Of a stretch of DNA of 64,000 nucleotides, positions 46,587-62,488 are shown one piece after another (positions within the stretch are counted from its first letter, which is position 1; each line of letters begins with the position of its first letter). Under the pieces are notes generated by a model. That model was not told where the DNA came from and made no database searches. It saw only the letters and a program-made list of their open reading frames with translations. This DNA comes from an uncultured delta proteobacterium (GTDB lineage Bacteria > Desulfobacterota > RBG-13-43-22). A program made the position numbers and the translations under genes. The DNA is taken from NCBI GenBank assembly GCA_963790475.1, contig CAWBOS010000015.1, forward strand, positions 512,001 to 576,000. Direction: 5' to 3'.

Positions 46587-47693
46587 TTATTGGGGAATAA
46601 AGTCTTCAATAGGACGCAGTTTTTTATTCAGGATCTGTAAAATGTCTTTCTCCTCCCGGTAGGCGGATAAATAAGCCCTGATCGAGATACCCATGGTGAC
46701 CATACCGGTCAGGATAAGCGCGGCGTCCATGATCGTCCACAACCCCAACCCGAAATAACGTATCAGAGAAATGCCTAAGGCAATGAGAGCTATACCCGTG
46801 CGGATGAAAGCAAGCATCGTTCTTTCCTTGGCCAAAACAGTTCGATGAGAAGATAAATAATTCCGGGCAACGGCGAGGTGGTTCCGGTCTTTGGCTAATT
46901 GGGTTCTCAGCACCGAATACTCGGTTCGAGTGGCAGCCCATACTGTTCGCTTATCCGCTAATTCAGTCCGCCTGGAAGCCAAAGTAGTCCGCTGATCGGC
47001 CAAGTCGGTACGCCTGCCAGCCAACTTTGTCCGATCATCGGCTAACATCGTTCTCCGGTCGGCTAACTGGGTACGTCGGGCAGCGAGACTGGTCCGCTCA
47101 TCGGCCAAATCGGTTCGTCTATCCGCCAAATCAGTTCTTCGGCCTGCCAGGTCGGTACGTCTATTAGCTAATGCGGTCCGTTGTTCGGCCAACTCAGTAC
47201 TTTTGAGCGATAGTTTGGTCTGATCCTGCATCAATCTTGTACGCACATCGGCCTGTATTGTACGTTGTTCGGCCAGCTCGGTTCGTTTATTGGAAGTATC
47301 CACCAGATTGGCCGACATCTCGGTGCGTTTTTCGGCTAAGTTGGTCCGTTGATCGGAATTCTTGACCAACTGTTTGTCCAATTCCATGCGCTGGGCCGAC
47401 ATCTCGGTGCGTTTTTCGGCTAACTGGGTCCGTTGATCGGAATTCTTGACCAGTTGTTTGTTCAGTTCGGTGCTTTGTGCTGCCAGATCAGTACGGAGGG
47501 CCGAATTCTTGACCAGATCCGAGGTCAGGGAAGTTCGGCTTCGGGCTAATTCGATTTGTTCTTCTTCGAGCTTGTTTTCCTGATCAGCAAACTTGAGGAG
47601 GCCCTCAAAGACCGGCTTTTCTTCTTCCAGGACTTGGAGGATTTCTTTTAAGAAAACGGGACTTCCCTGTTCGTTATTGGTTTCTGCACTCAT
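46587..47693 (-). CDS. DUF202 membrane protein with very long R-T-x-L-A heptad repeat
   Basis: C-terminal LAKERTMLAFIRTG plus two TM helices; Arg at every 7th position from 172 to 298, with the register extending back to residue 53. Confidence 0.85.
   Translation of the reverse strand: MSAETNNEQGSPVFLKEILQVLEEEKPVFEGLLKFADQENKLEEEQIELARSRTSLTSDLVKNSALRTDLAAQSTELNKQLVKNSDQRTQLAEKRTEMSAQRMELDKQLVKNSDQRTNLAEKRTEMSANLVDTSNKRTELAEQRTIQADVRTRLMQDQTKLSLKSTELAEQRTALANRRTDLAGRRTDLADRRTDLADERTSLAARRTQLADRRTMLADDRTKLAGRRTDLADQRTTLASRRTELADKRTVWAATRTEYSVLRTQLAKDRNHLAVARNYLSSHRTVLAKERTMLAFIRTGIALIALGISLIRYFGLGLWTIMDAALILTGMVTMGISIRAYLSAYREEKDILQILNKKLRPIEDFIPQ
47311..47460. repeat. Internal 84-bp-period duplication in the DUF202 gene
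   Basis: GCCGACATCTCGGTGCGTTTTTCGGCTAA...GATCGGAATTCTTGACCA at 47311 and 47395. Confidence 0.85.
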
Positions 47694-47717: not shown

Positions 47718-48554
47718 TTAGTCTAAGGCAACAGGTCTATCTTCAAGGCCAATTTGAACCTCTTTCACACCGGCCACCTGCCGGGCTACCTCGATCAGAT
47801 CGTTCTTGATTCTATGTTTTCCGCTGGGAAAAATTCCTCCCGTTTCAAAGGTTCCGGAAATTTTAACCGTTCCCTTTTCCGCCGACACTTTAAGTTCCAA
47901 CCCCTTTGTACGGTCATGACCCGCCAACTCGGCCTTTACCCTGCTGGCCAAAAGGAAATCTTCAATAATAATTTGAGATTCTGGAGATTCCACGAATTCT
48001 TTTTGATTTAGAGTACAAACGATCATTTCACAAGCACTTTCTATCCCGATGGAATCCAAGTTAATGACTAAGTCATATAGAGAGGGATCCCGCCAGTCCA
48101 CGTCGTATAAAAACCGTGTCCACTTGACCCGGCTTTCATCCATCTTTTCAATGGTTTTTTTCGCATCTTCTAAAGACATATTTTGGGTTTCGGCAAGCTT
48201 CTGGGCGCGTCGAGTCAACGGGGCAATGACCCTGACCTTTAAAACCCCGGGGATACCTTTCATCAGCAGATGTCCAGCATGCCCATAATAAGCAAAAGGC
48301 CCCCTCTGGGCCCTTTCGGCCAAAGCCAGTTGGATGGCCGTTAAATAAAGGCTTCGTTCCGTCGAAGGACCGCGAATTAATCCTTTGGTCTTTTCCAACT
48401 GTTGAAGGAGAAGGGATTGGGATATCCCAAAACGATCCGAAGCTTCCTGTAAAATTTCCTGGCTGACCGCAGGAATGCCTAATCTTCCCGACAGGCATTT
48501 CGCCAAAGCTTCCCCTCCGCTCATCGTACCTCTGGAAATGGTTATTATGGCCAT
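47718..48554 (-). CDS. Cytidylate kinase-like protein with C-terminal BON-like domain
   Basis: MAIITISRGTMSGG, VLKVRVIA, WRDPSLYDLVIN. Confidence 0.85.
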   Translation of the reverse strand: MAIITISRGTMSGGEALAKCLSGRLGIPAVSQEILQEASDRFGISQSLLLQQLEKTKGLIRGPSTERSLYLTAIQLALAERAQRGPFAYYGHAGHLLMKGIPGVLKVRVIAPLTRRAQKLAETQNMSLEDAKKTIEKMDESRVKWTRFLYDVDWRDPSLYDLVINLDSIGIESACEMIVCTLNQKEFVESPESQIIIEDFLLASRVKAELAGHDRTKGLELKVSAEKGTVKISGTFETGGIFPSGKHRIKNDLIEVARQVAGVKEVQIGLEDRPVALD

Positions 48555-48616: not shown

Positions 48617-48991
48617 TCACCCGGAAAGCCCCAGGGCTTTTATGACCAGATCCCGCAACTGGCTTAGTTTAAACGGTTTGGCAATAAAATCGTAGGCCCC
48701 TATTTTTAAGGCTTCCCTGGCCTTTTCCACAGTGGCAAACCCGGTGATGATAATCACTTTGGTTTCGGGAGAAACCTTTTGAACCAGTTTTAACACCTCA
48801 ATACCATCCAACTCTTTCATTTTTAGGTCGGTGATTAAAATCTGAAATTTTTTTTCAGCAAATCGTTTAATAGCTTCGTTGGGATCGATAAACGTCTCAA
48901 TATCCAGATTGACCTTTTCCAGGGTGGACCTCAACCTTTCACAAACGATCGGCTCATCATCCAAAATCATCACGCTGTAGGCTTTTTCCAT
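48617..48991 (-). CDS. Stand-alone response regulator receiver
   Basis: ILDDEP, ITDLKM, ITGFAT, IAKPF. Confidence 0.92.
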   Translation of the reverse strand: MEKAYSVMILDDEPIVCERLRSTLEKVNLDIETFIDPNEAIKRFAEKKFQILITDLKMKELDGIEVLKLVQKVSPETKVIIITGFATVEKAREALKIGAYDFIAKPFKLSQLRDLVIKALGLSG

Positions 48992-49025
48992 AGGACCTCC
49001 ATTCAAGGAGCACATCCTTTCCGGG

Positions 49026-49397
49026 TTATTTAAATTTTTTGGCGGCCTTATCCACCAGTTTGACGATCTGTTCCAATTTAAAAGGTTTGGTAACAAATTC
49101 CGCATCCAGTATTTGCGCTTCTCTGGCCCTTTCGATCGTGGCATAGCCGGTAATCACGATGGCCTTGGTATCCAGAGCCCGATCCTTAAGAAATTTTAAA
49201 ATGTCCAACCCGCTGGGACCGCTCATCTTGAGATCGGTTACCAAGACCTGAAAATTTTTTTCCTCCAGGCGGTTTAATGCCTTTTGACTGTCGGTGAAAA
49301 CTTCCACCGCGTATCCCTCTTTTTCCAGGACCGGCTGTAACCGTTCCCCGACAATGGGTTCGTCATCAAGAACCATAACTGAAATATTTTTTTTCAT
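49026..49397 (-). CDS. Stand-alone response regulator receiver
   Basis: VLDDEP, VTDLKM, ITGYAT, VTKPF. Confidence 0.92.
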   Translation of the reverse strand: MKKNISVMVLDDEPIVGERLQPVLEKEGYAVEVFTDSQKALNRLEEKNFQVLVTDLKMSGPSGLDILKFLKDRALDTKAIVITGYATIERAREAQILDAEFVTKPFKLEQIVKLVDKAAKKFK

Positions 49398-49454: not shown

Positions 49455-52013
49455 TTACAATGCCGGTGTACTTTGCGACGGTTCTTCTTTCAAAAATTTA
49501 TCGGCAAAAAAATCAATATCTTTTTCATTGCGCAACAAGACATCCAACTGCCGGGTGAACCCTATTAATCGGCCGATCAACCGAAATTTGTCTTCCATCA
49601 GGGACTGTTCGATCTTTTTTATTCTGGCGGTGATCAATTCCCCCTTACTTTCCACGGCAAAGTCATTCTTTTCCAGTATCTGGGCCAACAGTTTTACCCT
49701 TCGGGTCCGCCGGTTAACCTCGGTAACCCCTCCAAAAAACCGGAAATAAATATAATTGCTGTCCCGGTCCTCGGACATATTCCCGTCAATCAGGTTAAAA
49801 TGATATCCCAGACCCAGATTCAGGTTGAGGTATTCCTTGGAGACAATGGCCAGGTTTATATTGAGCCTTTCTGTGGAAAGGGCCTCCGTGGAGGGGTTGC
49901 GGGTAAAGCTGGACATGAATCCTTTGAGATCCAAATCGACCGGCTGGGACTGCCACACGCCGGGGGCAACCAGGGCCCGAAGCAGAATCGACAGAGGCCG
50001 ACAGTCGACTTCATCGAGGATTATTTCATTAGAAGAAATTCCCTTTTTAATACCTCCGCCAATATCGAGGACCGTCAAATTAAGGGGGATGGGCAGTTTA
50101 AGTTTGGTCAAGGAATGAATAAAACTCAATTGACTGGGATGTATACCTTGGGCGATTTTTCGAACGGCCATTTCATGGGCAAATCGGATGATATCATGAA
50201 ACGTTTTACAATGGGCCGGATCGAATTCATTGGATTGAGGGTCGGTAATATTCAAAGTGGATATCTTCTTGAGCAACCTGCGGAGCAGCTTAAACTCATA
50301 GGTTTCTTCATAGGGTATTTTTTCGATCAGCTGGGCGGTTAGAAGTTCCTTGACAATTCCCTGGTAAATCACATTCTCCTCGGCATCAACGGTCACTTCC
50401 ATACCGGACTTTAAGACCTGAGTGGCCGAATTGGTATCCACGATGGTTGGAACCCGGAATTCCCTGCAGATAGTCGCCATATGGCCGGTAACCGCCCCTA
50501 TATCGGTGACCACCGCACTGGCCTGGGGGACCAGTTTGGACATCCGGGGAGAGGTATGTTTTAAGACCAGAACCGCACCGCGGGGAAAAAGCTGACTTTC
50601 TTCCTCTGATTGAACTTGAAAAACAGCCCCGGCCCCGATTCCCCTGCTGGCAATTACCCCTTGGTTTTTTAAGAGGACCGGATATTTTTGGGCGGCGGTA
50701 ATCAGCCGGCTTTTATCCATTTTCAGTTTTCCTGAAAATTGAAGAGGCCGGGCCTGGAGATAGGTGACCTGTCCCTTTTGATCGATAGACCATTCAATGT
50801 CTTGAAAGGATTTCATATATTGTTCAATCCGGAGGGCCCCTTCGATAATCTCCCGCATGATTGATTCATCCAGGCAAGGCACTTCCTGTTTATCCGGAGG
50901 GACTGAAACCAGAGAAATCCCCTTTCCTTTCTCCAGGACGTACTGTTTGGTTTTTTTCCCAATATGCTGCCATAAAATCGGATAAGGATCGACTTTAGAA
51001 ACCTTATATTGATCTACTTCCCCTTCGCCATCCACCACCAGCTTCCCCAACCCCCAAGAAGCCGCCAAGATCATCTCCTCCCCCTCCAATCCATTGGGAT
51101 CAGCGGTATAAATAACCCCGCTGACCTGGGGGGAGATCATGGGCAAACATCCCACGGCCATAGCCATTTCCTTTTGTTTGATGCCTCTCTCATTTCTATA
51201 ACTCATGACCTGGGGAGAAAACAAACTGGCCACGACTTGTTTGTATCCGGAGTCTATTTGAGAGGAAGGAACATTTAGAACGGTGGTATATTGACCGGCA
51301 TAACTGATTTGGCTGTCTTCTCCCAGGGCGCTGCTGCGAACCGCCCAGCCGCCGAGAGGGGTATTATTCCAGGAAGAGAGGGCCTTTCGAATGGCCTTTT
51401 TGAGTTCCGGAGGCGTTTTGGCCCTGAGGATCAGTTCTTTCAGTTCTTTGGCCTTTTCCTCCATGACCTCTTGCTTAAACTTTCCTTCGCTTAAAGGGGC
51501 CACCCATTCTTCCAGTTTATTAAACTCAATGAATTGTTTAAAGGCATAGGTGGATATGACAAATCCCTCGGGAACCTTTAGCCCCAAACGATTTTGGAGT
51601 TCCCCCAGGGTGGCCATTTTTTCCCCCACATAATCGGACATTTCTTTGGTCAGCTCCCTTAGAGGATAAACATATTCCCCTTTGGGGAGTGTAAACCGGG
51701 AATCCAGTTCCCCATGGATTTCCATTTTTGCCTTTTCAAAAACATCAAAAAGGTCCAAATATTTTTTAGGGGTGATCAAATTGAGGTCATAGACGACCTT
51801 GTAGACCACCTCCTCCAACTGATTGGTCACGGTTTCAATATATTGTTTGTCGAAAAGATAATCGCCCCCGAGTTTTTCGCCCATATCGGCCATGAGGTCC
51901 AAGGCCTGGTTATTGTAATCCAAGAGCTCCCTGAAGGTCTGAAAAAGGAACTGGAGGGATAGCTCTTCCTCATTTTTTTTACGTCCCAAAAAATATTTAA
52001 TGGGGTTTAACAT
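49455..52013 (-). CDS. PEP synthase/PPDK-like protein (ATP-grasp and phospho-His domains, no pyruvate-binding barrel)
   Basis: VGEKMATL, WAVRSSALGED, QDIEW, QARPL, GAVTGHMATICREF. Confidence 0.85.
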   Translation of the reverse strand: MLNPIKYFLGRKKNEEELSLQFLFQTFRELLDYNNQALDLMADMGEKLGGDYLFDKQYIETVTNQLEEVVYKVVYDLNLITPKKYLDLFDVFEKAKMEIHGELDSRFTLPKGEYVYPLRELTKEMSDYVGEKMATLGELQNRLGLKVPEGFVISTYAFKQFIEFNKLEEWVAPLSEGKFKQEVMEEKAKELKELILRAKTPPELKKAIRKALSSWNNTPLGGWAVRSSALGEDSQISYAGQYTTVLNVPSSQIDSGYKQVVASLFSPQVMSYRNERGIKQKEMAMAVGCLPMISPQVSGVIYTADPNGLEGEEMILAASWGLGKLVVDGEGEVDQYKVSKVDPYPILWQHIGKKTKQYVLEKGKGISLVSVPPDKQEVPCLDESIMREIIEGALRIEQYMKSFQDIEWSIDQKGQVTYLQARPLQFSGKLKMDKSRLITAAQKYPVLLKNQGVIASRGIGAGAVFQVQSEEESQLFPRGAVLVLKHTSPRMSKLVPQASAVVTDIGAVTGHMATICREFRVPTIVDTNSATQVLKSGMEVTVDAEENVIYQGIVKELLTAQLIEKIPYEETYEFKLLRRLLKKISTLNITDPQSNEFDPAHCKTFHDIIRFAHEMAVRKIAQGIHPSQLSFIHSLTKLKLPIPLNLTVLDIGGGIKKGISSNEIILDEVDCRPLSILLRALVAPGVWQSQPVDLDLKGFMSSFTRNPSTEALSTERLNINLAIVSKEYLNLNLGLGYHFNLIDGNMSEDRDSNYIYFRFFGGVTEVNRRTRRVKLLAQILEKNDFAVESKGELITARIKKIEQSLMEDKFRLIGRLIGFTRQLDVLLRNEKDIDFFADKFLKEEPSQSTPAL

Positions 52014-52119: not shown

Positions 52120-52914
52120 CTAATGCCCGCCTTTAGAGCTGAAAACGATCCCTATGAACAAGCCGCTGACCATGGCAATGAGAACGGACAGGATCCCATA
52201 CCACAATCCTTTCCGCGTGGCCAACCCGGATATCAAGGCCGGAAATCCCACCAATTGCACCTCAAGATGACTGGAATGGAGCAACCGGCCATTTCCCTCC
52301 TTAAAAGCCAGCAGTTCAAGCACATAGGAACCCGGATATATTTTAGGCGGCAGCTCCAGCACGGCATCCGCTTGATCCCAGACCCCTTTCTCCAGGGGTT
52401 TTATCCGGACCGTTCCTTCAAAGATATGGTAGAGATTATCCTTCTCTTTTAACTTAATCAATTCCTTGAGCAGGAGGGATTCCTCTTCCTGATTTTTAGT
52501 ATTCAGGCTGCCGGAGAGGGCTGACAGGTAATTCAGCTTCATCGCCTGGGGCGCCCCTCCCTCTTCCATGGAAGCCAATTTTTCGGAAGTCCACAGAAGA
52601 TAGACCTTGGGCAAATTTTTAAAATGGATCTCTTGGACATTCATCCATAAGCCGCCCACCCGGCCCTTGCGCATCAGGGCCAACTCTTCCCGGGGTCCAA
52701 GGATCCTGAAGGCGATGTGATCTCCGGAAGGCACCACCGCCCTGACGGTTACTTTTCCTCCGGGGAAAAAACTGCCGATCCGGATAGTATGGGGTTGAAT
52801 GACATCAATACCGATCGGGGAAGTCGCCCCATAAACTCCGGATATGAAAAAAACCAAAATAAAGACCCCCAGGATAAATGGATAGCCGAATCCCTTGAGC
52901 CTATGCCGGTTCAT
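52120..52914 (-). CDS. TIGR02186-like TSUP-associated membrane protein
   Basis: RKGRVGGLWMN; signal peptide and C-terminal TM; follows a TSUP gene. Confidence 0.8.
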   Translation of the reverse strand: MNRHRLKGFGYPFILGVFILVFFISGVYGATSPIGIDVIQPHTIRIGSFFPGGKVTVRAVVPSGDHIAFRILGPREELALMRKGRVGGLWMNVQEIHFKNLPKVYLLWTSEKLASMEEGGAPQAMKLNYLSALSGSLNTKNQEEESLLLKELIKLKEKDNLYHIFEGTVRIKPLEKGVWDQADAVLELPPKIYPGSYVLELLAFKEGNGRLLHSSHLEVQLVGFPALISGLATRKGLWYGILSVLIAMVSGLFIGIVFSSKGGH

Positions 52915-52916
52915 GA

Positions 52917-53852
52917 TTAATGGCCTCCTTTATAGGATAACAGTAGCTTGGGATTTAGGACAAGCCCTAATAACATCTGAACCATGACCACCAGGATAAT
53001 GACGGCCAGCAGAATTTTTATTTGATCGCCTTTCAGCCGTTTACTGATACGCGCCCCGATTTGGGCCCCGCAGGAAGATCCTACCAGGAGGATGAGGGCC
53101 AGGATAAAGTCCACCGTATGATTGAACGTGGCTTGCATGACGGTCACATTGACACAGGTAAAAAAAATCTGAAATAGACTGGTCCCAACCACCACATGCA
53201 TCGGCATCCGGAGCATGTAGACCATGATGGGGACCATAATAAAGCCGCCCCCGACACCCATAATGGCCGCCAATACGCCAACCAGGGTTCCTAACAGAAG
53301 GGGGATAATAAAAGAAATATGGATCCCGGATTTATCAAAATTCATCTTGAACGGTAAACCGGTTATCAAGCGAGCATAAAAGGAAGGAGGTTTTTGAACG
53401 GAGGTGGAAATTTCTTCAGCCAGGGGGGCTTTCTTCAGGCTTTGCAGACTCTCCATAAACATGTAGCCGCCGATAATCCCCAACATGGCCACATAAGTTA
53501 TTTTGATGACAAAATCGGCATTGCCCGAGGCCCTGAGTATTTTGACCAATTGAACCCCCAGGGTTCCCCCGATCACACCACCAATGAGCAGGACAACCCC
53601 CATTTTAAAATCCACATTGCCCAGGCGATAATGAGCATAGGTCCCGGAGGCCGAGGCGGCCACGATTTGGTTGGAGTCCGAAGCCGCTGCTACGGTGGGC
53701 GGGATGCCGAACATAATTAATAAGGGGGTCAGCAGAAATCCTCCCCCGACCCCGAAGAGTCCCGACAAAAAACCAACCAGGCCGCCTAAACCCAATAAAA
53801 GGAAAACGTTAATGCTGTTGGCGGCGATGGGCAAATAAATGGAAAAATTCAT
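52917..53852 (-). CDS. TSUP (TauE/SafE) family transporter
   Basis: GLFGVGGGFLLTP and IMGVGGGFIMVP repeats, VVGTSL. Confidence 0.92.
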   Translation of the reverse strand: MNFSIYLPIAANSINVFLLLGLGGLVGFLSGLFGVGGGFLLTPLLIMFGIPPTVAAASDSNQIVAASASGTYAHYRLGNVDFKMGVVLLIGGVIGGTLGVQLVKILRASGNADFVIKITYVAMLGIIGGYMFMESLQSLKKAPLAEEISTSVQKPPSFYARLITGLPFKMNFDKSGIHISFIIPLLLGTLVGVLAAIMGVGGGFIMVPIMVYMLRMPMHVVVGTSLFQIFFTCVNVTVMQATFNHTVDFILALILLVGSSCGAQIGARISKRLKGDQIKILLAVIILVVMVQMLLGLVLNPKLLLSYKGGH

Positions 53853-53855
53853 ATC

Positions 53856-55403
53856 CTATCTCTCCTTAGCTTTTGGAAGATAAACCGAAAAAGTGGAGCC
53901 TTGATTGATTTGGCTGGCGACTAAAATTTTTCCACCATGCTTTTTAACGATACTGTAACTGGTGGAGAGACCCAGTCCGGTCCCATTTTCTTTGGTGGTG
54001 AAAAAGGGATCGAATATCTGGGCGATGACGGCTTGCGGTATGCCCACCCCGGTATCGGTCACCTCTATCCGGGTAAATTGTTCGTCTTCATCATTCACCC
54101 GAAGGCTCAATATCCCGGCCTGGGGCATGGCCTGGATGGCGTTGATCAGGAGATTGAGAAAGACCTGTTGGAGCTGGCTGAAATCCCCCAGAATCTTTGA
54201 ATCTTGGGTTTCAGGGGTATACTGCAATTTGATGTTGTTCAATTCCATTTCATGCCGGGCCAGTTTTATCGTGGAGCCTATCAATTCCCGAGTTGAAACC
54301 GGCACAAAGGCCGGCGGTCCCATACGGGTGAAATCCAATAGATTCCGAACCGTGCCGCTGGCCCGCTCCGCCTGGGTATAGATATCCTGAAGGCGTTTTC
54401 TTTTTTCTTCATCGGTGATGTTTTCCAATTCATCGATCAGGGATTCGGTGGTAATACAGATATTATTTAAGGGATTGTTCAGCTCATGGGCGATACCGGA
54501 AGTCAGGGTCCCTATGGAAGCCATTTTCCGGGTTTGGAGGTATTGTTCCTGATTTTTTTGCAGTTGATCCATCATTAAATTAATGGCTATGGCCAGCCGG
54601 GAAAATTCATCCTTATATTTTTTGGCCGGGGTAATGGGGGTATAATCTCCCTGGGCGATTCTCAAGGTATAGTCGACAAATCGGTTTAAGGGCAGGACAA
54701 TCTGTTGGGCTAAAAACCGGGTCAGGTAGGCCATGACCAAAAGGAGGATAGCCAGAAAAATCAGTGGGACTTGACGGGACCATTGGGTCATGGCCTCTAC
54801 ATCTTTCCGTTCTTTTTCTACCAGATTGGCGGCCATAAAGATCATTTCAGCCCCATGCTGCCTCAGTTCTCCCTCGATCTTACCCAGGACCACTGGATTT
54901 TCCGCCGATCCCGGCATTAGCTCTCTTAAGCTGCCCAAGAGGTTTTCGTAACGGCTGAGATGGGACAGCATAAGATTCAATTTTTCCTGACTGATAACCG
55001 CAGTGATATTCTTTCCTTCCTTCTTGAGAATTTCCCGGGCGTTTTGCGTGGTTTCCAAAGCATCGGGCAGATTGGTTTTATAAAGAAAAAAGTTTTTCTC
55101 ATAACGGCGGGCTTGTTGAATTTCAAAGGAGTAATTGTTGAGGGTTTCCATAAATCTTACTTTTTTATCCACCTGCCCCCCCATGATGATATAGGTGATA
55201 CTGGCTGCGGCGCATAAGACGAACAACAGGGAAAAGCCCATGATGATTTTGGTCCTGATATTCATGGTGGGTCTTTCCACCAAACCTTTTTGGGCTTCTT
55301 TCAGGGCGGCTTCATCCAGAACCAGCCCCGGGGTCGACCGATCGGGAACACCCTTCATCAGGCCCTCTTCCGGAAAGGCATCCTCTTTATGATCCATGGT
55401 CAT
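53856..55403 (-). CDS. Membrane sensor histidine kinase (HAMP)
   Basis: Two TMs, GIAHELNNPL, QVFLNLLINA, DTGVGI, FDPFFTTK, GTGLGL. Confidence 0.95.
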   Translation of the reverse strand: MTMDHKEDAFPEEGLMKGVPDRSTPGLVLDEAALKEAQKGLVERPTMNIRTKIIMGFSLLFVLCAAASITYIIMGGQVDKKVRFMETLNNYSFEIQQARRYEKNFFLYKTNLPDALETTQNAREILKKEGKNITAVISQEKLNLMLSHLSRYENLLGSLRELMPGSAENPVVLGKIEGELRQHGAEMIFMAANLVEKERKDVEAMTQWSRQVPLIFLAILLLVMAYLTRFLAQQIVLPLNRFVDYTLRIAQGDYTPITPAKKYKDEFSRLAIAINLMMDQLQKNQEQYLQTRKMASIGTLTSGIAHELNNPLNNICITTESLIDELENITDEEKRKRLQDIYTQAERASGTVRNLLDFTRMGPPAFVPVSTRELIGSTIKLARHEMELNNIKLQYTPETQDSKILGDFSQLQQVFLNLLINAIQAMPQAGILSLRVNDEDEQFTRIEVTDTGVGIPQAVIAQIFDPFFTTKENGTGLGLSTSYSIVKKHGGKILVASQINQGSTFSVYLPKAKER

Positions 55404-57913
55404 GCAAAGGCCTCATAATCACTGGCGAGAAACCGGTCCACATAATGTCGCACGGTCGCTTCATTTTCCATCAACATGTCCATTTGACGAGCACAGCCCA
55501 TGAGTTTTCCCAAAAGTTCCAGCCCTGCCTCCGAAGAGGCTTCGGGATAACCCCGAAGCCAGGCCGTGACCAGGTCTCCCCGCTGGTCCACACTGAACCG
55601 GGAGGATAGTAAAACCTCCTTCAAAAACCTGGCCCGCAGGTCGCGGCGCTGAAGGCTCCCGCCACCGCCGCGAAAACGAAAATTGACATAATTATTTTCG
55701 GTAACCGGGCTGATCAGACTGTCGACCATAGCGTAATGGTAGGCCAGCCGGATATTTAAACTCATATAATCCGGGGCCACCAACAAATAATTAGGGTCTC
55801 CCATTTTTCTCATGGCCCCCATATCCTGACTCAAAGAAGAGGACATGACCGAAGCGAAACCCTTGAGATCGATCTCCGTTCTGCCGGCCCAACTGACCCG
55901 GGGATCCATCATGCCCTTCCACAAGGCCTGGAAGGGTGTGGAACGAATCTGTTCCGGGGCGACCTCTTTTTGAGTCGGTCCCCCGTTGTGAAACGCCCCC
56001 CCTAAATCCAGGACAAAGAGGTACAGGGGGATCGGTGAGGATAACCGGCGGGAGGAAATTCCTTTTTTTCGGGTCTCCTTATCCCCTACTGCAAATAGAG
56101 AGGCGATTCCTTTTTCGTGAACAAAACGAATCAGGTCATGAATGGATTCGGCCGCTTCAGGCCGGAAATTGCGGGCCTGAGGATCGGTCAGTTTTAGTTT
56201 GAGGATCAGATCATGTAAGGGTCCGGCCTCCGGTTTGATCTTGGGTTTGACCAAACGGGCCATGGTCCTTTCCCGTACGTCCGGCCAGGGATTCCCTTCA
56301 AAAATTTGACGATGCGTGGCGTCCAATCCTATCAGATCGCCGGACCGGAGTTTTACTGTCGCCGCCGGAACATCAAATATGGAGGGGACCGCAAATTCCC
56401 GGAGCAGGGTGGCGGCATGCCCGGTAGGCTGGCCCTGTTCGGCAATACAACCGGCCAAATGAGGCAGGACGGTCCCTATTTCAGGAACAGCCTGAGGAAC
56501 AACCAGGATCACCCCGTGAGGAAGGGATGACAGTCCTTGCCCCGGGGTAACGATTTGAACCGGGGCCACCGCCCGACCTGGAAAAATCGTAATCCCTCCG
56601 GAAAGAAGAGGGCGTTCTCCGGGAGAGGTACTTCCAGATTCCTGGGGTTCGATTAAACGCAGGGGGCGGCATTGGAGGATCCAGATTTTTCCTGTCTGGT
56701 CAATAGCCCATTCGATATCCTGGGGCGCCCCAAATTGTTTTTCTATCTTGACCGCCCATCCGGCCAGAAGAGACCTCTCTTCATCCGATATCGAGGGGGC
56801 AGCCTGCACCTCCGGCGTATTGGCCTGCCTTTCCATTTGACCCGGTTGTCCCTGAATCAGTCGCTCCTTTTTGAAGGCGATCCGGCTCTCTTTGGCCTGA
56901 CCGGGGTTCCGGTAATCCATTCGGAAGAAATCGGCTGGGGCTTGTCCCCCAACCAAATCTGCTGCCAGTCCCCAGGTGGAGCTGATCAGGATATCCTTAT
57001 TGGCCGGTTGCCCCGGGTCCTGGGTATAAAGGACTCCGGAGCTCCGGGCCTGAATAAGAGGGAGGAACAAAACAGCCATGGGTGTTTCCACCTCAGTTAT
57101 TCCACTGGACAGCCGATAAGCGATAGCCCGGTCACTAAACCGGCTGGCCACGACTTTCTGATAGGTCTTAGCCAGAAATTCGCTGGGGATATTCAAAAAG
57201 CTGGCAAATTGTCCGGCAAAGGTCAGGGAGGTGTCCTCCCCGACGGCACTGGATCGGACCGCCCAATGTTGCTCTTGCGGCCATCGGCCTTGAACAAATG
57301 TCCGGATGGTCTCCTCAATAACTTGGGGCAGGGAAGAATGCTCAATCATTTCTCGGATTCGGCCGGCCTTTTCTCGAAACCGTTCCGGATCGCTACTGAC
57401 CTCCAGGGTATCCAGAAGGATACGAATTTCCGAGGCCAGACGCGGTTCGGAAACCCAGTTTTCATAGGCGCCGATAGTTACCGCAAATCCATCAGGGACC
57501 AGGTCCGGAAATCTCTTTTTCAGTTCACCCAGGCGGGCCGCCTTACCCCCCACCAATCGCTCTTGGGTCAAATCCATTTCGGAAATGGGGATCAACTGCA
57601 CCTTCGGGGACTTGGCTGAGGGCCTTCTCAACTGTTGCATGATCTGCTCTTCGATTTTGACAAAAGCCGAATACAATCCCTGATAATGGCTTTCGGCAAT
57701 TTGGTTCAGGTCTTCAATCATTAACAGGGTCCCCTCTAAGAGACTTCGGATTTGATGTTCCAAAGAGGCTGACCCGAGGGGCAAAAAACGGAGATCGGCC
57801 TCCAGGTCGGCCATGACCTCCAATAGACGGCTGTTTTCTCCTAAGAGGGACTGAAGCCCCTGGTATTTTTGGCGGATGATCCCCGAAGTCGCCGGTTGGT
57901 TGTTCATGTTCAT
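55400..57913 (-). CDS. Second PEP synthase/PPDK-like protein (no pyruvate-binding barrel)
   Basis: VGGKAARL, WAVRSSAVGED, PQDIEW, GQPTGHAATLLREF. Confidence 0.85.
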   Translation of the reverse strand: MNMNNQPATSGIIRQKYQGLQSLLGENSRLLEVMADLEADLRFLPLGSASLEHQIRSLLEGTLLMIEDLNQIAESHYQGLYSAFVKIEEQIMQQLRRPSAKSPKVQLIPISEMDLTQERLVGGKAARLGELKKRFPDLVPDGFAVTIGAYENWVSEPRLASEIRILLDTLEVSSDPERFREKAGRIREMIEHSSLPQVIEETIRTFVQGRWPQEQHWAVRSSAVGEDTSLTFAGQFASFLNIPSEFLAKTYQKVVASRFSDRAIAYRLSSGITEVETPMAVLFLPLIQARSSGVLYTQDPGQPANKDILISSTWGLAADLVGGQAPADFFRMDYRNPGQAKESRIAFKKERLIQGQPGQMERQANTPEVQAAPSISDEERSLLAGWAVKIEKQFGAPQDIEWAIDQTGKIWILQCRPLRLIEPQESGSTSPGERPLLSGGITIFPGRAVAPVQIVTPGQGLSSLPHGVILVVPQAVPEIGTVLPHLAGCIAEQGQPTGHAATLLREFAVPSIFDVPAATVKLRSGDLIGLDATHRQIFEGNPWPDVRERTMARLVKPKIKPEAGPLHDLILKLKLTDPQARNFRPEAAESIHDLIRFVHEKGIASLFAVGDKETRKKGISSRRLSSPIPLYLFVLDLGGAFHNGGPTQKEVAPEQIRSTPFQALWKGMMDPRVSWAGRTEIDLKGFASVMSSSLSQDMGAMRKMGDPNYLLVAPDYMSLNIRLAYHYAMVDSLISPVTENNYVNFRFRGGGGSLQRRDLRARFLKEVLLSSRFSVDQRGDLVTAWLRGYPEASSEAGLELLGKLMGCARQMDMLMENEATVRHYVDRFLASDYEAFA

Positions 57914-58038
57914 TTCTTTATCCCCTGGCGAATATAAACATTCATGCCCCTTAAAGCTCCACCAAAATGAAAATGGAAGTCCCTGAAATTGCCAATGTGA
58001 AACTCGGCAACCCTAATCCCAATTTTGCGCTCAATCCC

Positions 58039-58446
58039 TCATTCGCCGGCATTGACCCTTGAAAGTCCTTTGAACCCCAAGGCCTCAGCCGCCCGGTAAA
58101 CAACCTCTCGTAAATCGTTCGGTTTAAAGGGCTTGGCGATAAAATCAAAGGCGCCTTTGCCCAAGGCCTCCCGGGCCACCTCAACCGTGGCATAGCCGGT
58201 GATCATGATGACCTTGGTATGGTCAGACCTGGCCTTTACTTTTTCCAGGATCTCGATCCCGTCAATATCTTCCATGCGAATATCGGTCACCACGACATCA
58301 AAGGTCTTTTCCTCAATCCGCTGCAAGGCCTTTTTAGGATCCTCAAAGGATTCCACCTCACAACCCATCTTCATCAAAGCCGGACCTAATCGCTTGCCGA
58401 CAATCGGTTCGTCATCCAGAATAAGGACCTGCATTTTTTGCTCCAT
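58039..58446 (-). CDS. Stand-alone response regulator receiver
   Basis: ILDDEP, VTDIRM, ITGYAT, IAKPF. Confidence 0.92.
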   Translation of the reverse strand: MEQKMQVLILDDEPIVGKRLGPALMKMGCEVESFEDPKKALQRIEEKTFDVVVTDIRMEDIDGIEILEKVKARSDHTKVIMITGYATVEVAREALGKGAFDFIAKPFKPNDLREVVYRAAEALGFKGLSRVNAGE

Positions 58447-58527
58447 GATTTACCTCCAATCCGTTATTACCAAAATACCATGGTCGAACCATTTTCATAC
58501 TGCAGGGGTGCCCTCAGGACTCGCGCC

Positions 58528-59616
58528 TTACCAGAGAGCCAATCCCTGCCCGAGTTGGGTCAGATATTTTTCAATCTCCATCGGCGGCCTTTGGAAGGCA
58601 GCCAGTTCGTAAACCTTTTGGCCCTGTTGACCGGTCCAATCCCAAAGCGTGGAGAGATTCCGGATAAAAAGGGAATCGACGGGGCCCGCCTGCCAACGAA
58701 AAAAGAAATGATTTAATTCACGGACATTGGTCAAAACCATATCCAGGATGAGTGTGCCCTCTAGGGAAACCCCATATAAAAAAAGCGAATTCTCGGAGAC
58801 TATCAAAAACAAAGGAGGATCTTCCTTTCTCTGTTTTTCATGGTAGGTGATTAAGGAATCGGAAACACCCTTATGAAACAGGGTCCATGGTTTGTAAGAC
58901 GCCAAACTTTCTTCGAGTAGGTTGGGCTCCCTGAGATTATTTTTGTTCAAACTCGACCTTCCCCCCAGACCAACCACATACCAAGGAAAATCCTCGGCTA
59001 CGGTAATAGGAAGGGCCAGGCCTGTTGTGATCCAGTGTTGCCAAGACTCCGGCTCAAAAAATTGCCCCAGGACTTGTTCGTGAGCGAAGTGCAGGGCCAT
59101 CCGAAGATTTAGAACCTCTTCAATTTTTTCCGGCCAGGGGTTTCCGGTGTTCGGTCCTGAAGGGTCCAGCAGCTCAATCACCCCTTTAAGCATTTGGAAT
59201 TCAGGTTCCTGTTCCAGATCTTCACTTGCTTGCTGGAGCCCTCCTGTCTCTGTAGGTTTGGAGACCGGAGAAACAGCAGGGGTTCCCCCGCCTTTGCTAA
59301 AACCGGACAGATAGGCCTGAGCGTTTTCTTTCATTTGATCCAACTTCAGGTAAAGACCCGTTTCCGCTTCTTCCCTCAGAATCATTCCGTCATAGGTCAT
59401 TTGATAGGTCTTTTGAAAAAGCTGACCCACGGTTGAGAAGACATACTGGCGGTCGAAAATATATTCCCCCTGGACCTTTTCCTTCAAATCAGACAAAAGC
59501 CGGTCGCAGGCCCATTCGGTTTTTAAAAAATGCCGCCAGCGATTCAGACGGATTTTAAGGGAAAGGACCGTATCTCCCTTTTTGCCCACACCCAGAAATT
59601 TCTGAAACCAGGACAT
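58528..59616 (-). CDS. Degenerate paralogue of the PEP synthase-like proteins lacking catalytic domains
   Basis: KVQGEYIFDRQYV matches KLGGDYLFDKQYI; LHFAHEQ and NHFFFRW match IRFAHEM and NYIYFRF; no VRSS, DIEW or TGH. Confidence 0.7.
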   Translation of the reverse strand: MSWFQKFLGVGKKGDTVLSLKIRLNRWRHFLKTEWACDRLLSDLKEKVQGEYIFDRQYVFSTVGQLFQKTYQMTYDGMILREEAETGLYLKLDQMKENAQAYLSGFSKGGGTPAVSPVSKPTETGGLQQASEDLEQEPEFQMLKGVIELLDPSGPNTGNPWPEKIEEVLNLRMALHFAHEQVLGQFFEPESWQHWITTGLALPITVAEDFPWYVVGLGGRSSLNKNNLREPNLLEESLASYKPWTLFHKGVSDSLITYHEKQRKEDPPLFLIVSENSLFLYGVSLEGTLILDMVLTNVRELNHFFFRWQAGPVDSLFIRNLSTLWDWTGQQGQKVYELAAFQRPPMEIEKYLTQLGQGLALW

Positions 59617-59646
59617 GCTCCGCCCCTTTTCTTAGCGCCAAAGACT

Positions 59647-60735
59647 TTAGGGATTTGCCCGGCCATAGGACAAAGTCAGGTGGATTTTCTTGCGAGCCCG
59701 GTAGGCCCGGATAACATTGTAAAGGATCATTACCACCCCGGTGATACCGCTGGCAAAAAGCAGATACTTGCTTCCATTGTTGAACCAGGGATCCAGCGAG
59801 GGGCTGATATCCAGGAACCCCAATTGACGAAGATACATGGGAACGGCAATAGCCCGGCTTATAACGCAGAACAGGATGATCAGACAGGTGACCATTCGAA
59901 TGTACCGCTCACCGACTACTTTCACGCCATAGGCCCCGAGATAAACCCCTATTAAAGACCCGGTCATCAATAAAACGGTCAGTCGAATATCAACAAACCC
60001 TTCCCAGGCATAGTTCAAGGCCCCCCAGGCCCCCATAAACATAGCCAAATACAACTCCGTCCCGGCGGCCACGGCGGTAGGAACGCCGAAAACATAAATC
60101 ATAGCCGGTACTCCGACAAACCCCCCAACCCCGATCGTGCCGGCCAGATAACCGGTAGCCAGACCGACCGGCAGTAAGAACCATAAGGAAACCTTGACAT
60201 CGGCCACTTTAAAATGGATAAAGGGAGGAATCTTCATCCGGGCCAGGGATTCGGAAATTTTCTTGGAAGGTCCCGTCCCTTCTTCCGTATTTTTCATCAG
60301 GTCCCGAAGCATGGAGATGGCCACCAGGGTCAAGATGCCGATGAAAACAGCGCTGATATATAAATTGGCCCCGGCTCCGGAAGCGGCCCCGTGCCCATCT
60401 CCTCCTCCATGAAATAACAGACTGTTGATCCAGACGGCCAGACGGATACCGAGCAAGCTGGTGACGAGCAGGAACATGCCCAACCTTTTGTCGACATTTC
60501 CCATTTCTCCATGTTTCTTGGACCCCATCATGGCCTTGCCGAATTTGTGAGTTATATTGCTGGCTACGGCCACCACGCCGTTGACCCCCAGGTTCATCAT
60601 CCCCGGGGTCATAAAAAAGGCCCCCCCGCTCCCGATAAACCCGCTTAATACCCCACCGATAAACCCCAGAACGATTACCTGTAAGGCAGAAGAGAGATCT
60701 AGAGAAATAAACATACTCGCTATTTCGTTGGTCAT
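59647..60735 (-). CDS. TSUP (TauE/SafE) family transporter
   Basis: SGFIGSGGAFFMTP, TIGVGGFVGVP, AAGTEL. Confidence 0.9.
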   Translation of the reverse strand: MTNEIASMFISLDLSSALQVIVLGFIGGVLSGFIGSGGAFFMTPGMMNLGVNGVVAVASNITHKFGKAMMGSKKHGEMGNVDKRLGMFLLVTSLLGIRLAVWINSLLFHGGGDGHGAASGAGANLYISAVFIGILTLVAISMLRDLMKNTEEGTGPSKKISESLARMKIPPFIHFKVADVKVSLWFLLPVGLATGYLAGTIGVGGFVGVPAMIYVFGVPTAVAAGTELYLAMFMGAWGALNYAWEGFVDIRLTVLLMTGSLIGVYLGAYGVKVVGERYIRMVTCLIILFCVISRAIAVPMYLRQLGFLDISPSLDPWFNNGSKYLLFASGITGVVMILYNVIRAYRARKKIHLTLSYGRANP

Positions 60736-60756
60736 AGGAACGCTCCTTTTTCATTT

Positions 60757-60903
60757 TTGATGAACTCGTAAAAAGTCGCCAAAAGACGTATTTAGTCATT
60801 CCGGTCCCGTATCAAGTACGGGATAGACTCCAGCCGTAATCCAGTGTTTTTAATTAGTTATATTCTCCTGGACCCCGGCTTTCGCCGGGGTGACGCTTTT
60901 TAC
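60757..60903. mobile_element. MITE/REP-like palindromic element
   Basis: GTAAAAAG...CTTTTTAC ends enclosing GTCATTCCGG-(CCCGTA..TACGGG)-AATCCAG and CTGGACCCCGGCTTTCGCCGGGGTGAC hairpins. Confidence 0.6.
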
Positions 60904-60974
60904 CTGTCCATCTTTTTTAACTATTACATCCGGCAAAACGGATTTCGCTGAACGCCGAATGGCAGTTTCCCCGT

Positions 60975-62486: not shown

Positions 62487-62488
62487 AG

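What the first reader, a model, noticed from the sequence alone, without database searches (positions are those of the whole stretch)
46587..47693. DUF202 protein whose first helix is extended by ~35 in-register Arg heptads: possible polyanion conduit
Seen: the DUF202 start motif (LAxERTxLA) is amplified. Arg occurs at 19 consecutive heptad positions (172-298), and the same register holds back to residue 53. That is about 245 residues, or roughly 36 nm if one continuous helix, and includes a recent 84-bp duplication. Established: DUF202 is the membrane domain of eukaryotic VTC subunits, whose basic first helices line the polyphosphate channel. Inference: an oligomeric coiled coil with a continuous Arg stripe leading into a membrane pore, suited to binding or threading polyphosphate or another polyanion. 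It is the last gene of an operon rich in phosphotransfer enzymes.
Basis: partly seen in the sequence, partly recalled or inferred. Interest (0 to 1): 0.78.

Follow-up and report, generated by a model that had tools for sequence, protein, structure and literature searches.

The report
Arginine-ladder stalk on a DUF202 pore
This bacterial membrane protein repeats, dozens of times, the short arginine motif that lines the mouth of the yeast polyphosphate channel, probably forming a long arginine-cored stalk under the membrane; what it binds or conducts is unknown.

Summary
ORF 46587-47693 (-) encodes 368 aa with a C-terminal DUF202 domain. It is preceded by 36 in-phase RTxLAxx heptads, 29 with Arg at position 1 and 19 of those consecutive, and contains an 84-bp tandem duplication.

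This is a family trait, not a one-off. In 66 relatives the Arg run abutting TM1 spans 2-36 heptads, and 986 of 1001 RT dipeptides are in phase with TM1. The units are old: third-codon identity is 29% and Arg uses five codons.

The heptad Arg aligns with Vtc1 K24/R31, the two pore-lining basic rings of the yeast polyphosphate channel. A four-copy model (ipSAE 0.69, best control 0.00) gives a parallel in-register bundle with Arg and Ala in the core. All 61 arrays tested are net positive.

Relatives carry a fused C-terminal receiver or an N-terminal MshEN domain, so the array is cytoplasmic. In 24 of 67 loci it lies near both a receiver and a distinctive PEP-synthase-like dikinase, in two gene orders.

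I read it as a signal-linked oligomeric DUF202 pore with an anion-binding Arg-ladder stalk. Polyphosphate specifically is unsupported: the genome shows no PPK1, PPK2, VTC or CYTH match. It is a new variant of a known family.

The parts
46587..47693 (-). Whole ORF, 368 aa: N-terminal head, heptad array, DUF202 two-helix membrane hairpin, short C-terminal helix
47538..47693 (-). Residues 1-52: N-terminal head, already heptad-phased, partly low model confidence
47181..47537 (-). Residues 53-171: 17 imperfect in-phase heptads, 10 with Arg at position 1. 'LVKNSxQ' heptads have Leu at position 1 and Asn at position 4
47310..47468 (-). 84-bp tandem duplication (1.9 copies, 92% matches) = four heptads, residues about 76-128
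47181..47222 (-). Residues 158-171, 'QTKLSLK STELAEQ': two Arg-less heptads at the N-terminal edge of the pure Arg run. This landmark occurs in 24 of 67 related loci, always in phase
46782..47180 (-). Residues 172-304: 19 consecutive RTxLAxx heptads (Arg ladder); the last one enters TM1
46662..46844 (-). Residues 284-344: Pfam DUF202 match
46752..46802 (-). Residues 298-314: TM1. Invariant Arg at both ends (R298, R312) only 14 residues apart, with small residues (A302, A305, S309) at the axial heptad positions
46680..46739 (-). Residues 319-338: TM2
46590..46679 (-). Residues 339-368: cytoplasmic C-terminal tail. This is where relatives carry a fused receiver domain
47718..48554 (-). Upstream neighbour (24-nt gap): cytidylate-kinase-like (PF13189) + BON protein
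48617..49397 (-). Two single-domain response-regulator receiver genes (49026-49397 and 48617-49144; the second probably starts further downstream than its longest ORF)
49455..52013 (-). PEP-synthase-like dikinase (PPDK_N + swivel His domain) with an unassigned conserved C-terminal domain, residues 560-852
52120..55403 (-). Rest of the conserved block: Alph_Pro_TM, TauE-family permease, HAMP histidine kinase

Best explanation
The gene encodes a cytoplasm-facing, homo-oligomeric DUF202 (YidH/VTC-type) membrane protein. In the yeast VTC channel, one heptad supplies each of the two basic rings of the pore vestibule; here that heptad has been iterated many times. The resulting RTxLAxx array continues TM1 into the cytoplasm as a parallel, in-register helical bundle. 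In coiled-coil terms Arg is at d and Ala at a on the axis, while Leu (g) and Thr (e) make the helix-helix seams. The outcome is a long, net-positive Arg ladder in phase with the Arg rings at both ends of the very short pore helix. I infer that the ladder binds anions, whether discrete phosphate-type ions or a polyanion. I also infer that the protein is the membrane effector of a receiver-domain / PEP-synthase-like dikinase signalling module, and of c-di-GMP in MshEN-fused relatives. Shown: the repeat, its phase, its age, its family-wide occurrence, the fusions and the linkage. Modelled: the parallel bundle with core Arg. Inferred: anion binding, gating and the partner relationships.
For: Anatomy.

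Family trait. In 66 ORFs from 69 genome loci the Arg run abutting TM1 spans 2-36 heptads. Over 906 heptads, position 2 is T 83% / S 8% / N 7%, position 4 is L 80%, and position 5 is A 78% / S 21% / G 1%, so always small. 986 of 1001 RT dipeptides are in phase.

Purifying selection rather than recent slippage. Arg at position 1 uses CGA 6, CGT 6, CGG 9, CGC 4 and AGA 4. Mean pairwise DNA identity of the 19 units is 50.5%, and third-position identity is 28.6%.

Orthologues in 8 relatives keep one register to the N-terminus while heptad number varies from 31 to 49.

Link to VTC. R284/R291/R298 align with R25/R32/R39 of the canonical DUF202 paralogue. That paralogue aligns with Vtc1 so that R32 = R31 and R25 = K24. 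K24 and R31 form the two positive rings of the pentameric TM1 pore.

TM1 in 67 of 67 proteins has Arg at 0 and at +14. The axial positions between them are small: A+4 in 64, A+7 in 56, G/A+11 in 61. Thirteen apolar residues between two invariant Arg fit an inner helix facing a polar axis.

Complex model. Four copies of residues 200-368 gave ipSAE 0.69/0.69/0.70 against a best control of 0.00. Runs share at least 94% of contacts and partner pLDDT is at least 77. The tool's calibration: the mark was reached by 20 of 30 proteins solved as pairs of one chain and by 1 of 23 solved as single chains; it holds only roughly here, because I used my own alignment and four copies. Positions 1 and 5 touch both neighbours, with same-layer R-R and A-A contacts, and position 3 never touches.

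Charge. 61 of 61 arrays are net positive, median +0.63 per heptad; the window has K+R 29 against D+E 16 over 18 heptads.

Topology and signalling. A receiver domain is fused to the C-terminus in 19 of 67 loci (Pfam on P0096). MshEN plus three DUF202 units is seen in 70 of the 120 listed database hits (Pfam on P0023).

Linkage. A receiver and a dikinase both lie within 5 kb in 24 of 67 loci, in two different gene orders. All linked dikinases share the same unassigned C-terminal domain.
Against: No experiment exists on any member. The bundle is a model's own confidence, with the copy number imposed by me; I saw contacts, not coordinates, so I cannot say where the guanidinium groups end. Confident contacts fade inside the membrane, at 294/295, 298/299 and 305/306. 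The AF2 monomer instead breaks the helix at 185-195 and gives pTM 0.35. The small axial residues in TM1 could mean tight packing and no pore. The Vtc1 alignment is weak by E-value (0.37-0.66) and rests on the motif. 30 of 67 loci have no receiver, dikinase or kinase-like neighbour within the available flanks, and those loci share no other neighbour. E. coli YidH was picked in a D-alanine export screen but showed no export, so even the canonical family has no known function. Kin are not independent, so the locus counts overstate the number of independent observations.
Confidence: 0.45

Rival explanations
1. It is an ordinary structural coiled-coil stalk or scaffold. The array merely oligomerises the protein and holds the N-terminal head, or docks operon partners, at a distance from the membrane. 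Arg is kept for solubility or for oligomer-state specification. No anion is bound or conducted.
For: Pfam and NCBIfam give only weak coiled-coil-type matches over the array, such as ATG14, TPR_MLP1_2 and SMC. Heptad number varies from 31 to 49 among close orthologues with an otherwise conserved operon, as expected for a tolerant spacer. The non-core positions are slightly acidic, at -0.1 to -0.9 per heptad in 59 of the 61 arrays (the other two 0.00 and +0.29).
Against: Identity, not just character, is conserved at four of seven positions, over hundreds of old, diverged units. The same heptad and phase run into and through the pore helix. All 61 arrays stay net positive. RTxLAxx arrays were not seen apart from a DUF202 domain among the best 150 library representatives: 87 have the TM1 anchor, and the 13 long (590-3946 aa) anchor-less proteins examined showed no RTxLAxx array (P0122, P0161 and P0188 read: other simple repeats); the other 50 were not examined.
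Confidence: 0.28
2. One reading: an Arg-lined tube that threads polyphosphate from the cytoplasm into a DUF202 membrane pore, as VTC does.
For: The heptad Arg is homologous in position to the VTC polyphosphate vestibule rings. The ladder is un-neutralised. Arg is at core positions in the model. The gene is linked to ATP-dependent phosphotransfer enzymes. The genome has a Ppx/GppA-family gene.
Against: The own genome (100% complete by markers) has no match to PPK1 (PF02503, PF13090), PPK2 (PF03976), the VTC polymerase domain (PF09359) or CYTH (PF01928). PPK1 was found in 1 of 41 and PPK2 in 0 of 41 related genomes, whether or not they carry the gene. A 4- or 5-helix bundle with Arg in the core has no room for a polymer about 6 A wide; the VTC preprint gives a polyP radius of 3 A. 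No lumen was shown.
Confidence: 0.1
3. It is a fold-back helical hairpin, as in the AF2 monomer, that coats or remodels the membrane or lies in-plane on it, in the manner of PspA/Vipp1 (comparison recalled).
For: The AF2 monomer has helices 32-184 and 196-314 separated by a low-confidence break. The adjacent gene carries a BON domain, which by recall is a putative membrane-binding domain.
Against: The break falls in the most regular part of the repeat, at pLDDT below 50. In the 24 proteins with the Q/S landmark, the two arms are uncorrelated in length (Pearson r = 0.12) and differ by up to 15 heptads. There is only one Leu and one Ala per heptad for a membrane face. The four-copy model is parallel.
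Confidence: 0.07
4. It is a stable single alpha-helix (ER/K-like) acting as a monomeric ruler.
For: In the regular part (RRTDLAD), D3-R7 (i to i+4) and R7-D3' (i to i+3) could form an intrahelical salt-bridge ladder. This is read directly from the sequence.
Against: The invariant Arg at position 1 has only Leu and Ala at i+/-3 and i+/-4, so it has no intrahelical partner. Position 5 is always small, which points to helix-helix packing. The model supports self-association.
Confidence: 0.05

Closest known systems
Yeast VTC polyphosphate polymerase/channel, transmembrane domains of Vtc1/Vtc3/Vtc4 (PDB 7ytj, 8i6v, 9umg)
   Same: It has the DUF202 domain. The heptad-spaced basic residues at the cytoplasmic end of TM1 (K24 and R31 of Vtc1) align with the position-1 Arg of this protein's heptads. 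TM1 forms the inner ring of the oligomer.
   Different: VTC has two basic rings, whereas this protein has 29 Arg positions in phase plus one at the outer end of TM1. VTC subunits have three TM helices; this one has two. VTC carries or partners a TTM polymerase and SPX sensors, and none was found in this genome. The sequence match to Vtc1 is only motif-level (E 0.37-0.66).
Canonical bacterial DUF202/YidH proteins (E. coli YidH; the 149-aa paralogue at G000 contig 12)
   Same: It matches the same Pfam family, with the same LAxERTxLAWxRT start of TM1.
   Different: Canonical members have two heptads and a third TM helix. Their function is unknown: YidH was a screen candidate for D-alanine export but showed no export (passages read).
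MshEN-(DUF202)x3 and DUF202-receiver fusion proteins (database relatives such as P0023 and P0096)
   Same: They have the same RTxLAxx heptads abutting the same TM hairpin.
   Different: They have 5-6 heptads per unit and three units per chain (MshEN class), or about 12 heptads plus a fused receiver. The window protein has the longer array and separate receiver genes.
Anion-coordinating polar core layers of trimeric coiled coils (N@d layers of trimeric autotransporter adhesins)
   Same: Polar core residues point inward and coordinate ions on the axis (PMC13580157, abstract and three passages read).
   Different: Those are Asn/Thr layers in extracellular trimers that bind single chloride ions. 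Here Arg occupies every heptad of a cytoplasmic, membrane-anchored bundle. No ion was modelled.
CorA-type channels and the basic pore extension of Orai (recalled, not checked with any tool)
   Same: These are two-TM subunits whose pore helix continues as a long cytoplasmic stalk in a parallel oligomer, with a basic ring or basic stretch near the inner mouth.
   Different: The families are unrelated, they are cation channels, and they have no repeated heptad.

Membership tests
Pfam PF02656 DUF202 (YidH family) | Match to the family HMM above the curated cut-off | tested here: met
   42 bits against a cut-off of 23.4, residues 284-344, profile positions 1-65 of 68. The whole-genome search gives 46.5 bits.
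Pfam PF02656 DUF202 (YidH family) | LAxERTxLAWxRT motif leading directly into TM1, followed by a second TM helix | tested here: met
   'LAKERTMLAFIRTG' at 287-300. It aligns with 'MANERTFLAWIRTS' of the canonical paralogue. Helices 196-314 and 319-358 appear in the model.
Canonical YidH architecture | Third transmembrane helix after the DUF202 hairpin (recalled for YidH; seen in the own-genome paralogue) | tested here: not met
   The protein ends 30 residues after TM2 with a polar helix. The 149-aa paralogue has a third hydrophobic stretch.
VTC-type polyphosphate channel | Rings of basic residues on TM1 facing the pore axis | tested here: inconclusive
   Positional homology to K24/R31, and Arg at core positions of a four-copy model. 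No coordinates or experiment.
VTC-type polyphosphate channel | Pentameric assembly with TM1 as the inner ring | not testable with these tools
VTC-type polyphosphate channel | Coupled TTM/CYTH polyphosphate polymerase (Vtc4-type) | tested here: not met
   No PF09359 or PF01928 match in the own genome, 100% complete by markers; none in the operon.
Canonical parallel coiled coil | Heptad periodicity with hydrophobic a and d positions | tested here: not met
   The periodicity is met. The core pair is Arg/Ala, however, with Leu and Thr on the flanks.
Two-component / receiver-regulated effector | Receiver domain fused or adjacent in a conserved way | tested here: met
   Fused in 19 of 67 loci; a receiver lies within 3 kb in 32 of 67. 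Two receiver genes lie upstream in 8 of 8 close relatives.

The most novel reading that the evidence does not exclude
The Arg ladder is a cytoplasmic polyanion track feeding a DUF202 pore, and the invariably co-occurring PEP-synthase-like dikinase with its unassigned C-terminal domain makes or loads that polyanion. This would be a bacterial analogue of VTC built from unrelated enzymes, in a lineage where no PPK1, PPK2, VTC or CYTH gene was found.
Probability: 0.07. Interest if true: 0.95.

Novelty: new variant of a known kind. Interest (0 to 1): 0.66.

Why it matters
Bacterial DUF202/YidH proteins have no known function. Their only characterised relatives are the pore subunits of the eukaryotic polyphosphate polymerase. 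This family gives a direct handle on what the conserved ERT motif does: nature has iterated exactly the pore-vestibule heptad up to 36 times and kept it in phase with the pore helix. It has also tied the protein to receiver, c-di-GMP-receptor and dikinase partners. If the ladder binds anions, it would be an unusual protein architecture, a coiled coil with a charged core many nanometres long. It would also be a first functional clue for the bacterial family. If it does not, it is still a clean natural example of a polar-core helical bundle, and a defined three-part module (dikinase, receiver, DUF202) to test genetically in cultured Desulfobacterota.

Tried and rejected
- **Direct PDB match.** phmmer of the protein against PDB sequences found nothing at E up to 10. 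A profile of 24 family members hit only unrelated coiled coils and GPCR helices. The link to Vtc1 came only through the canonical paralogue.
- **Array outside DUF202.** The full-library search gave 977 representatives at E<=1e-3, 118 at 1e-10 and 16 at 1e-30. It listed long proteins that looked like stand-alone arrays. The three I read (P0122, P0161, P0188) carry other simple heptad repeats (RVDISGQ, EERTEAT, ERSQLPG), so they are chance periodic matches.
- **Fold-back hairpin.** I rejected this as a conserved feature because the arm lengths are uncorrelated.
- **Recent slippage.** I rejected this as the origin of the array on codon evidence. Only the 84-bp duplication is recent.
- **Lack of PPK as support for a new polyP route.** The lack is lineage-wide and not tied to carriers, so it gives no correlation.
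- **Dikinase C-terminal domain.** No Pfam family at E<=0.01 and no PDB sequence match beyond residue 593. The model has pLDDT 79 and pTM 0.71. Foldseek gave 0 matches at E<=0.001, and VIA-align's best was Z 6.3, within the tool's stated background. Its fold remains unassigned, not shown to be new.
- **Loci without linkage.** The neighbours share only signalling genes (11 loci) and one lineage-specific block (6 loci).
- **Literature.** 'DUF202' is held in 16 papers (15 listed) and 'YidH' in 21 (15 listed). No listed title or abstract start concerns this repeat or a bacterial function beyond the D-alanine screen. I did not read the unlisted ones. Supplementary figures of the VTC papers (pore radius, TM1 residues) were not seen.
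- **Protein atlas.** It returned only DUF202 clusters.
- **Not done.** RNA evidence for the operon, and folding of an MshEN-(DUF202)x3 protein.
Full report
**1. What is there.**
The minus-strand ORF 46587-47693 encodes 368 residues. Pfam places DUF202 at residues 284-344, at 42 bits against a cut-off of 23.4.

Written in rows of seven, the protein keeps one register from the N-terminus into the membrane. From residue 53 to 298 there are 36 heptads. Twenty-nine have Arg at position 1, and the last 19 (172-298) are consecutive. The typical unit is R-T-x-L-A-x-x. The register continues through TM1 (A305, R312).

Tandem Repeats Finder finds one recent event: an 84-bp (four-heptad) duplication at 47310-47468 with 92% matches.

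An AF2 monomer model (24-row alignment, pLDDT 77, pTM 0.35) is helical over 32-184, 196-314 and 319-358. It has a low-confidence break at 185-195. Helix 196-314 runs unbroken from the array into TM1.

**2. The array is old and under selection.**
The 19 regular units share only 50.5% DNA identity on average, and 28.6% at third codon positions. The position-1 Arg is written with five codons: CGA 6, CGT 6, CGG 9, CGC 4 and AGA 4. So Arg, Thr, Leu and Ala have been kept unit by unit. The array is not a recent slippage product.

**3. It is a family trait.**
The word-indexed database search returned 256 proteins at E<=1e-3 among 8000 scored candidates. Of the 120 listed:
- 70 carry MshEN (PF05157) plus DUF202 in the precomputed Pfam column.
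- 6 carry a receiver domain (PF00072).
- The rest are short single-DUF202 proteins.

Pfam scans confirmed MshEN plus three DUF202 stretches in P0023, and DUF202 148-209 plus a receiver at 233-340 in P0096. The sequences show the same heptad in all classes, at 5-6 units per DUF202 in the triple proteins and up to 20 in the short ones.

A scan of one genome per species returned 69 loci, mostly Desulfobacterota-type MAGs. They also included Ignavibacteria, Zixibacteria, Gemmatimonadales and Myxococcota, and isolates such as strain NaphS2, Desulforhopalus vacuolatus DSM 9700 and Desulfopila sp. IMCC35006.

In 66 ORFs from these loci:
- The Arg run abutting TM1 is 2-36 heptads long; the window's 19 is not the extreme.
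- Over 906 heptads, position 2 is T 83% / S 8% / N 7%, position 4 is L 80% / M 8% / F 5%, and position 5 is A 78% / S 21% / G 1%.
- 986 of 1001 RT dipeptides N-terminal of TM1 are in phase with TM1.

An exhaustive phmmer pass over 1.84 billion representatives gave 977 hits at E<=1e-3, 118 at 1e-10 and 16 at 1e-30. Of the 150 listed, 87 have the TM1 anchor pattern. I examined 13 long anchor-less hits (590-3946 aa): none has an RTxLAxx array, and the three I read hold other simple heptad repeats; the other 50 were not examined. I therefore did not see the RTxLAxx array apart from DUF202.

**4. Close relatives.**
Fourteen of 41 related genomes matched the protein; within the same family it was 11 of 20. 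In all 8 relatives whose loci I fetched, the following block is conserved, with this gene last:

histidine kinase - TauE - Alph_Pro_TM - dikinase - receiver - receiver - cytidylate-kinase-like/BON - heptad-DUF202

The downstream M16 peptidase genes are not part of it. Neighbour proteins are 59-95% identical to the window's. The DUF202 protein is only 41-82% identical, because heptads come and go: 31 to 49 heptads lie between the N-terminus and TM1. Every difference is a multiple of seven residues. Start codons are uncertain for some.

**5. Relation to VTC.**
The genome has a second, canonical DUF202 gene of 149 aa with three hydrophobic helices. BLASTP aligns its 'RRVHMANERTFLAWIRTS' with residues 284-308 of the window protein (R25/R32/R39 = R284/R291/R298). 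It also aligns with several other stretches of the array, which shows directly that the array is this motif iterated.

The same paralogue aligns with yeast Vtc1 chains (8i6v, 7ytj, 9umg). The match is 'KVFFANERTFLSWLN', at weak E-values of 0.37-0.66 but motif-level identity. This puts R32 on Vtc1 R31 and R25 on K24.

From passages of two structure papers:
- The VTC membrane part is a 3:1:1 pentamer.
- The five TM1 helices form the inner ring.
- K24/K698/K622 and R31/R705/R629 form two positively charged rings in the cytoplasmic vestibule, where phosphates are bound.
- Mutating these residues lowers or abolishes vacuolar polyphosphate.

The supplementary figures of these papers were not available to me. 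A table in a diatom paper lists DUF202 as the domain of Vtc subunits. The heptad Arg of this family is, by position, the pore-ring residue.

**6. The membrane helix itself.**
In 67 of 67 family proteins TM1 starts R-T-G and has a second invariant Arg 14 residues later, followed by Y-F-G and W at +21. The positions that continue the Arg/Ala line are small: A+4 in 64, A+7 in 56 and G/A+11 in 61 of 67.

Thirteen apolar residues between two invariant Arg are too few for a lipid-exposed span. This suits an inner helix whose Arg face a polar axis, shielded by TM2. It could equally mean very tight packing without an open pore.

**7. Oligomer model.**
The complex tool (ESMFold2) was given four copies of residues 200-368 with the family alignment.
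- The score was ipSAE 0.69, 0.69 and 0.70 against 0.00 for the best of three controls.
- The runs share at least 94% of contacts, and partner pLDDT is at least 77.
- By the tool's calibration, the mark was reached by 20 of 30 proteins solved as pairs of one chain and by 1 of 23 solved as single chains. This holds only roughly here, because I used my own alignment and four copies rather than two.

The contact list is informative:
- The scored copy touches one neighbour through that neighbour's positions 7, 1, 4 and 5.
- It touches the other neighbour through positions 1, 2, 5 and 6.
- Position 3 never touches.
- Same-numbered Arg (228-228, 235-235, 242-242) and Ala (225-225, 232-232, 239-239) of adjacent copies touch.
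- The diagonal copy touches only at R270.

This describes a parallel, in-register bundle with Ala at a and Arg at d in the core, and with Leu (g) and Thr (e) on the seams. It agrees with a helical-wheel reading of the sequence, in which L4, R1, A5 and T2 form one 160-degree face with R and A in the middle.

Thr of one helix lies next to Arg of the neighbour (for example 236 with 235). This would explain the conserved R-T pair as an interhelix hydrogen-bond network; that step is inference.

Limits: I chose the copy number, I saw no coordinates, and confident contacts fade within the membrane.

**8. Charge.**
Over the Arg runs, all 61 arrays of at least four heptads are net positive, with a median of +0.63 per heptad. 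The other six positions together are net -0.1 to -0.9 per heptad in 59 of the 61 arrays (0.00 and +0.29 in the other two). In the window, 18 heptads hold 29 K+R and 16 D+E.

Position-1 Arg has only Leu and Ala at i+/-3 and i+/-4, so it has no intrahelical acidic partner. A bundle of such helices would need counter-anions.

**9. Topology and partners.**
A receiver domain is fused after TM2 in 19 of 67 loci, and an MshEN domain precedes the array in many database relatives. Both domains are cytoplasmic, so both termini and the whole array lie in the cytoplasm. That is the side of the VTC basic rings.

Across the 67 loci:

| Feature | Loci |
|---|---|
| Receiver within 3 kb | 32 |
| PEP-synthase-like dikinase within 3 kb | 26 |
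| Receiver and dikinase both within 5 kb | 24 |
| No receiver, dikinase or kinase-like gene in the available flanks | 30 |

The linkage comes in two gene orders. One is the window's order, also seen in Desulfobacterium sp. N47. The other, in Desulfobacterales and Desulfobulbia, is DUF202::receiver followed at once by the dikinase. The 30 unlinked loci share no other neighbour.

The linked dikinases of both orders share one C-terminal domain, with 34 tblastn hits at 27-93% identity. That domain has no Pfam family, no PDB sequence match and no clear fold match.

Since DUF202 plus heptads is the only other module in the fusion proteins, it is most simply the output. I read it as a membrane effector controlled by phosphorylation or by c-di-GMP. 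That the dikinase's phospho-His feeds the receiver is a guess.

**10. Polyphosphate.**
The own genome (6.34 Mb, 20 contigs, 100% complete and 9.7% contaminated by markers) gave:
- no match to PPK1 (PF02503, PF13090), PPK2 (PF03976), the VTC polymerase domain (PF09359) or CYTH (PF01928);
- one Ppx/GppA match.

Among 41 related genomes, PPK1 was found in 1 and PPK2 in 0, in carriers and non-carriers alike. There is thus no known source of polyphosphate here and no correlation to lean on. This counts against the specific polyP reading, unless the operon itself makes the polymer. That possibility is the bold case.

**11. Rivals.**
- A plain spacer or scaffold remains the main alternative. It is weakened by residue-identity conservation, by the phase continuity into the pore helix and by the uniform positive charge.
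- A fold-back hairpin is not conserved. In the 24 proteins with the 'QTxLSxK-STEL' landmark, the two arms are uncorrelated in length (r = 0.12) and differ by up to 15 heptads.
- A single stable helix does not explain the always-small position 5 or the modelled self-association.

**12. Verdict.**
The array is the DUF202 vestibule heptad iterated, it most likely forms a parallel oligomeric stalk with an axial Arg ladder in phase with the pore helix, and it belongs to a conserved receiver/dikinase module. Whether anything passes along or through it, and what, is open; polyphosphate has no independent support.

I found no description of this subfamily in the papers searched. Newer Pfam annotation (PF28019 on P0001, P0025 and P0074) may cover part of it. 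That model is not in the local Pfam copy, and I could not see what it is.

Noticed in passing
window 49458-50336 (-) and 55400-57913 (-): Both PEP-synthase-like dikinases of the window end in a conserved domain of about 290 aa, with invariant H47, D48, H54, E55, H179 and R213 in the 32-row alignment A3. It has no Pfam family, no PDB sequence match and no clear fold match. It is shared by all dikinases linked to heptad-DUF202 genes.
   Followed up: partly
window 52120-62986 (-): The window holds a second, diverged copy of much of the module upstream: a 503-aa cytidylate-kinase-like protein, TauE, an unassigned 362-aa protein, a receiver, a dikinase and a histidine kinase. The system is therefore duplicated in tandem, but there is only one heptad-DUF202 gene.
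   Followed up: partly
database proteins P0005-P0103, e.g. P0023, P0028: A large class of proteins of about 550 aa joins an N-terminal MshEN (c-di-GMP receptor) domain to three DUF202 hairpins. Each hairpin is preceded by 5-6 RT heptads, and the proteins share a conserved C-terminal 'PYCFxDLE...VxFSxDD' tail. Three units per chain may bear on the oligomer number.
   Followed up: partly
window 47181-47222 (-); L040-L081: A conserved pair of Arg-less heptads (QTxLSxK STEL) bounds the pure Arg run in 24 of 67 loci. It is always in phase, 10-26 heptads from TM1. Its role is unknown; it could be a gap in the ladder, a hinge or a binding site.
   Followed up: partly
G000 contig 13, 462871-463722 (L109): The only Ppx/GppA-family match in the genome has one in-frame TGA inside the match. 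No PPK1, PPK2, VTC or CYTH match was found in the genome.
   Followed up: no
window 48617-49144 (-) versus 49026-49397 (-): The longest ORF of the second receiver gene overlaps the first by 119 nt. Its receiver domain starts at residue 58, so the true start is probably near 'MEKAYSVMILDDEP'.
   Followed up: no
G034 contig 127, about 23196-23429 (L013, L023, L027): A weak match to the heptad array in a same-phylum genome contains 7-8 TAG codons in frame. This may be chance periodicity or a differently read or broken gene.
   Followed up: no
table (P0001, P0025, P0074): The precomputed Pfam annotation lists PF28019 on three heptad-rich relatives. That accession is absent from the local Pfam copy, so its definition could not be checked.
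   Followed up: no
window 47181-47537 (-): In the N-terminal half, every third or fourth heptad reads LVKNSxQ. Position 1 changes Arg to Leu while position 4 changes Leu to Asn, and position 2 changes Thr to Val. This looks like a swapped-polarity layer. It is seen only in the window's own family.
   Followed up: no
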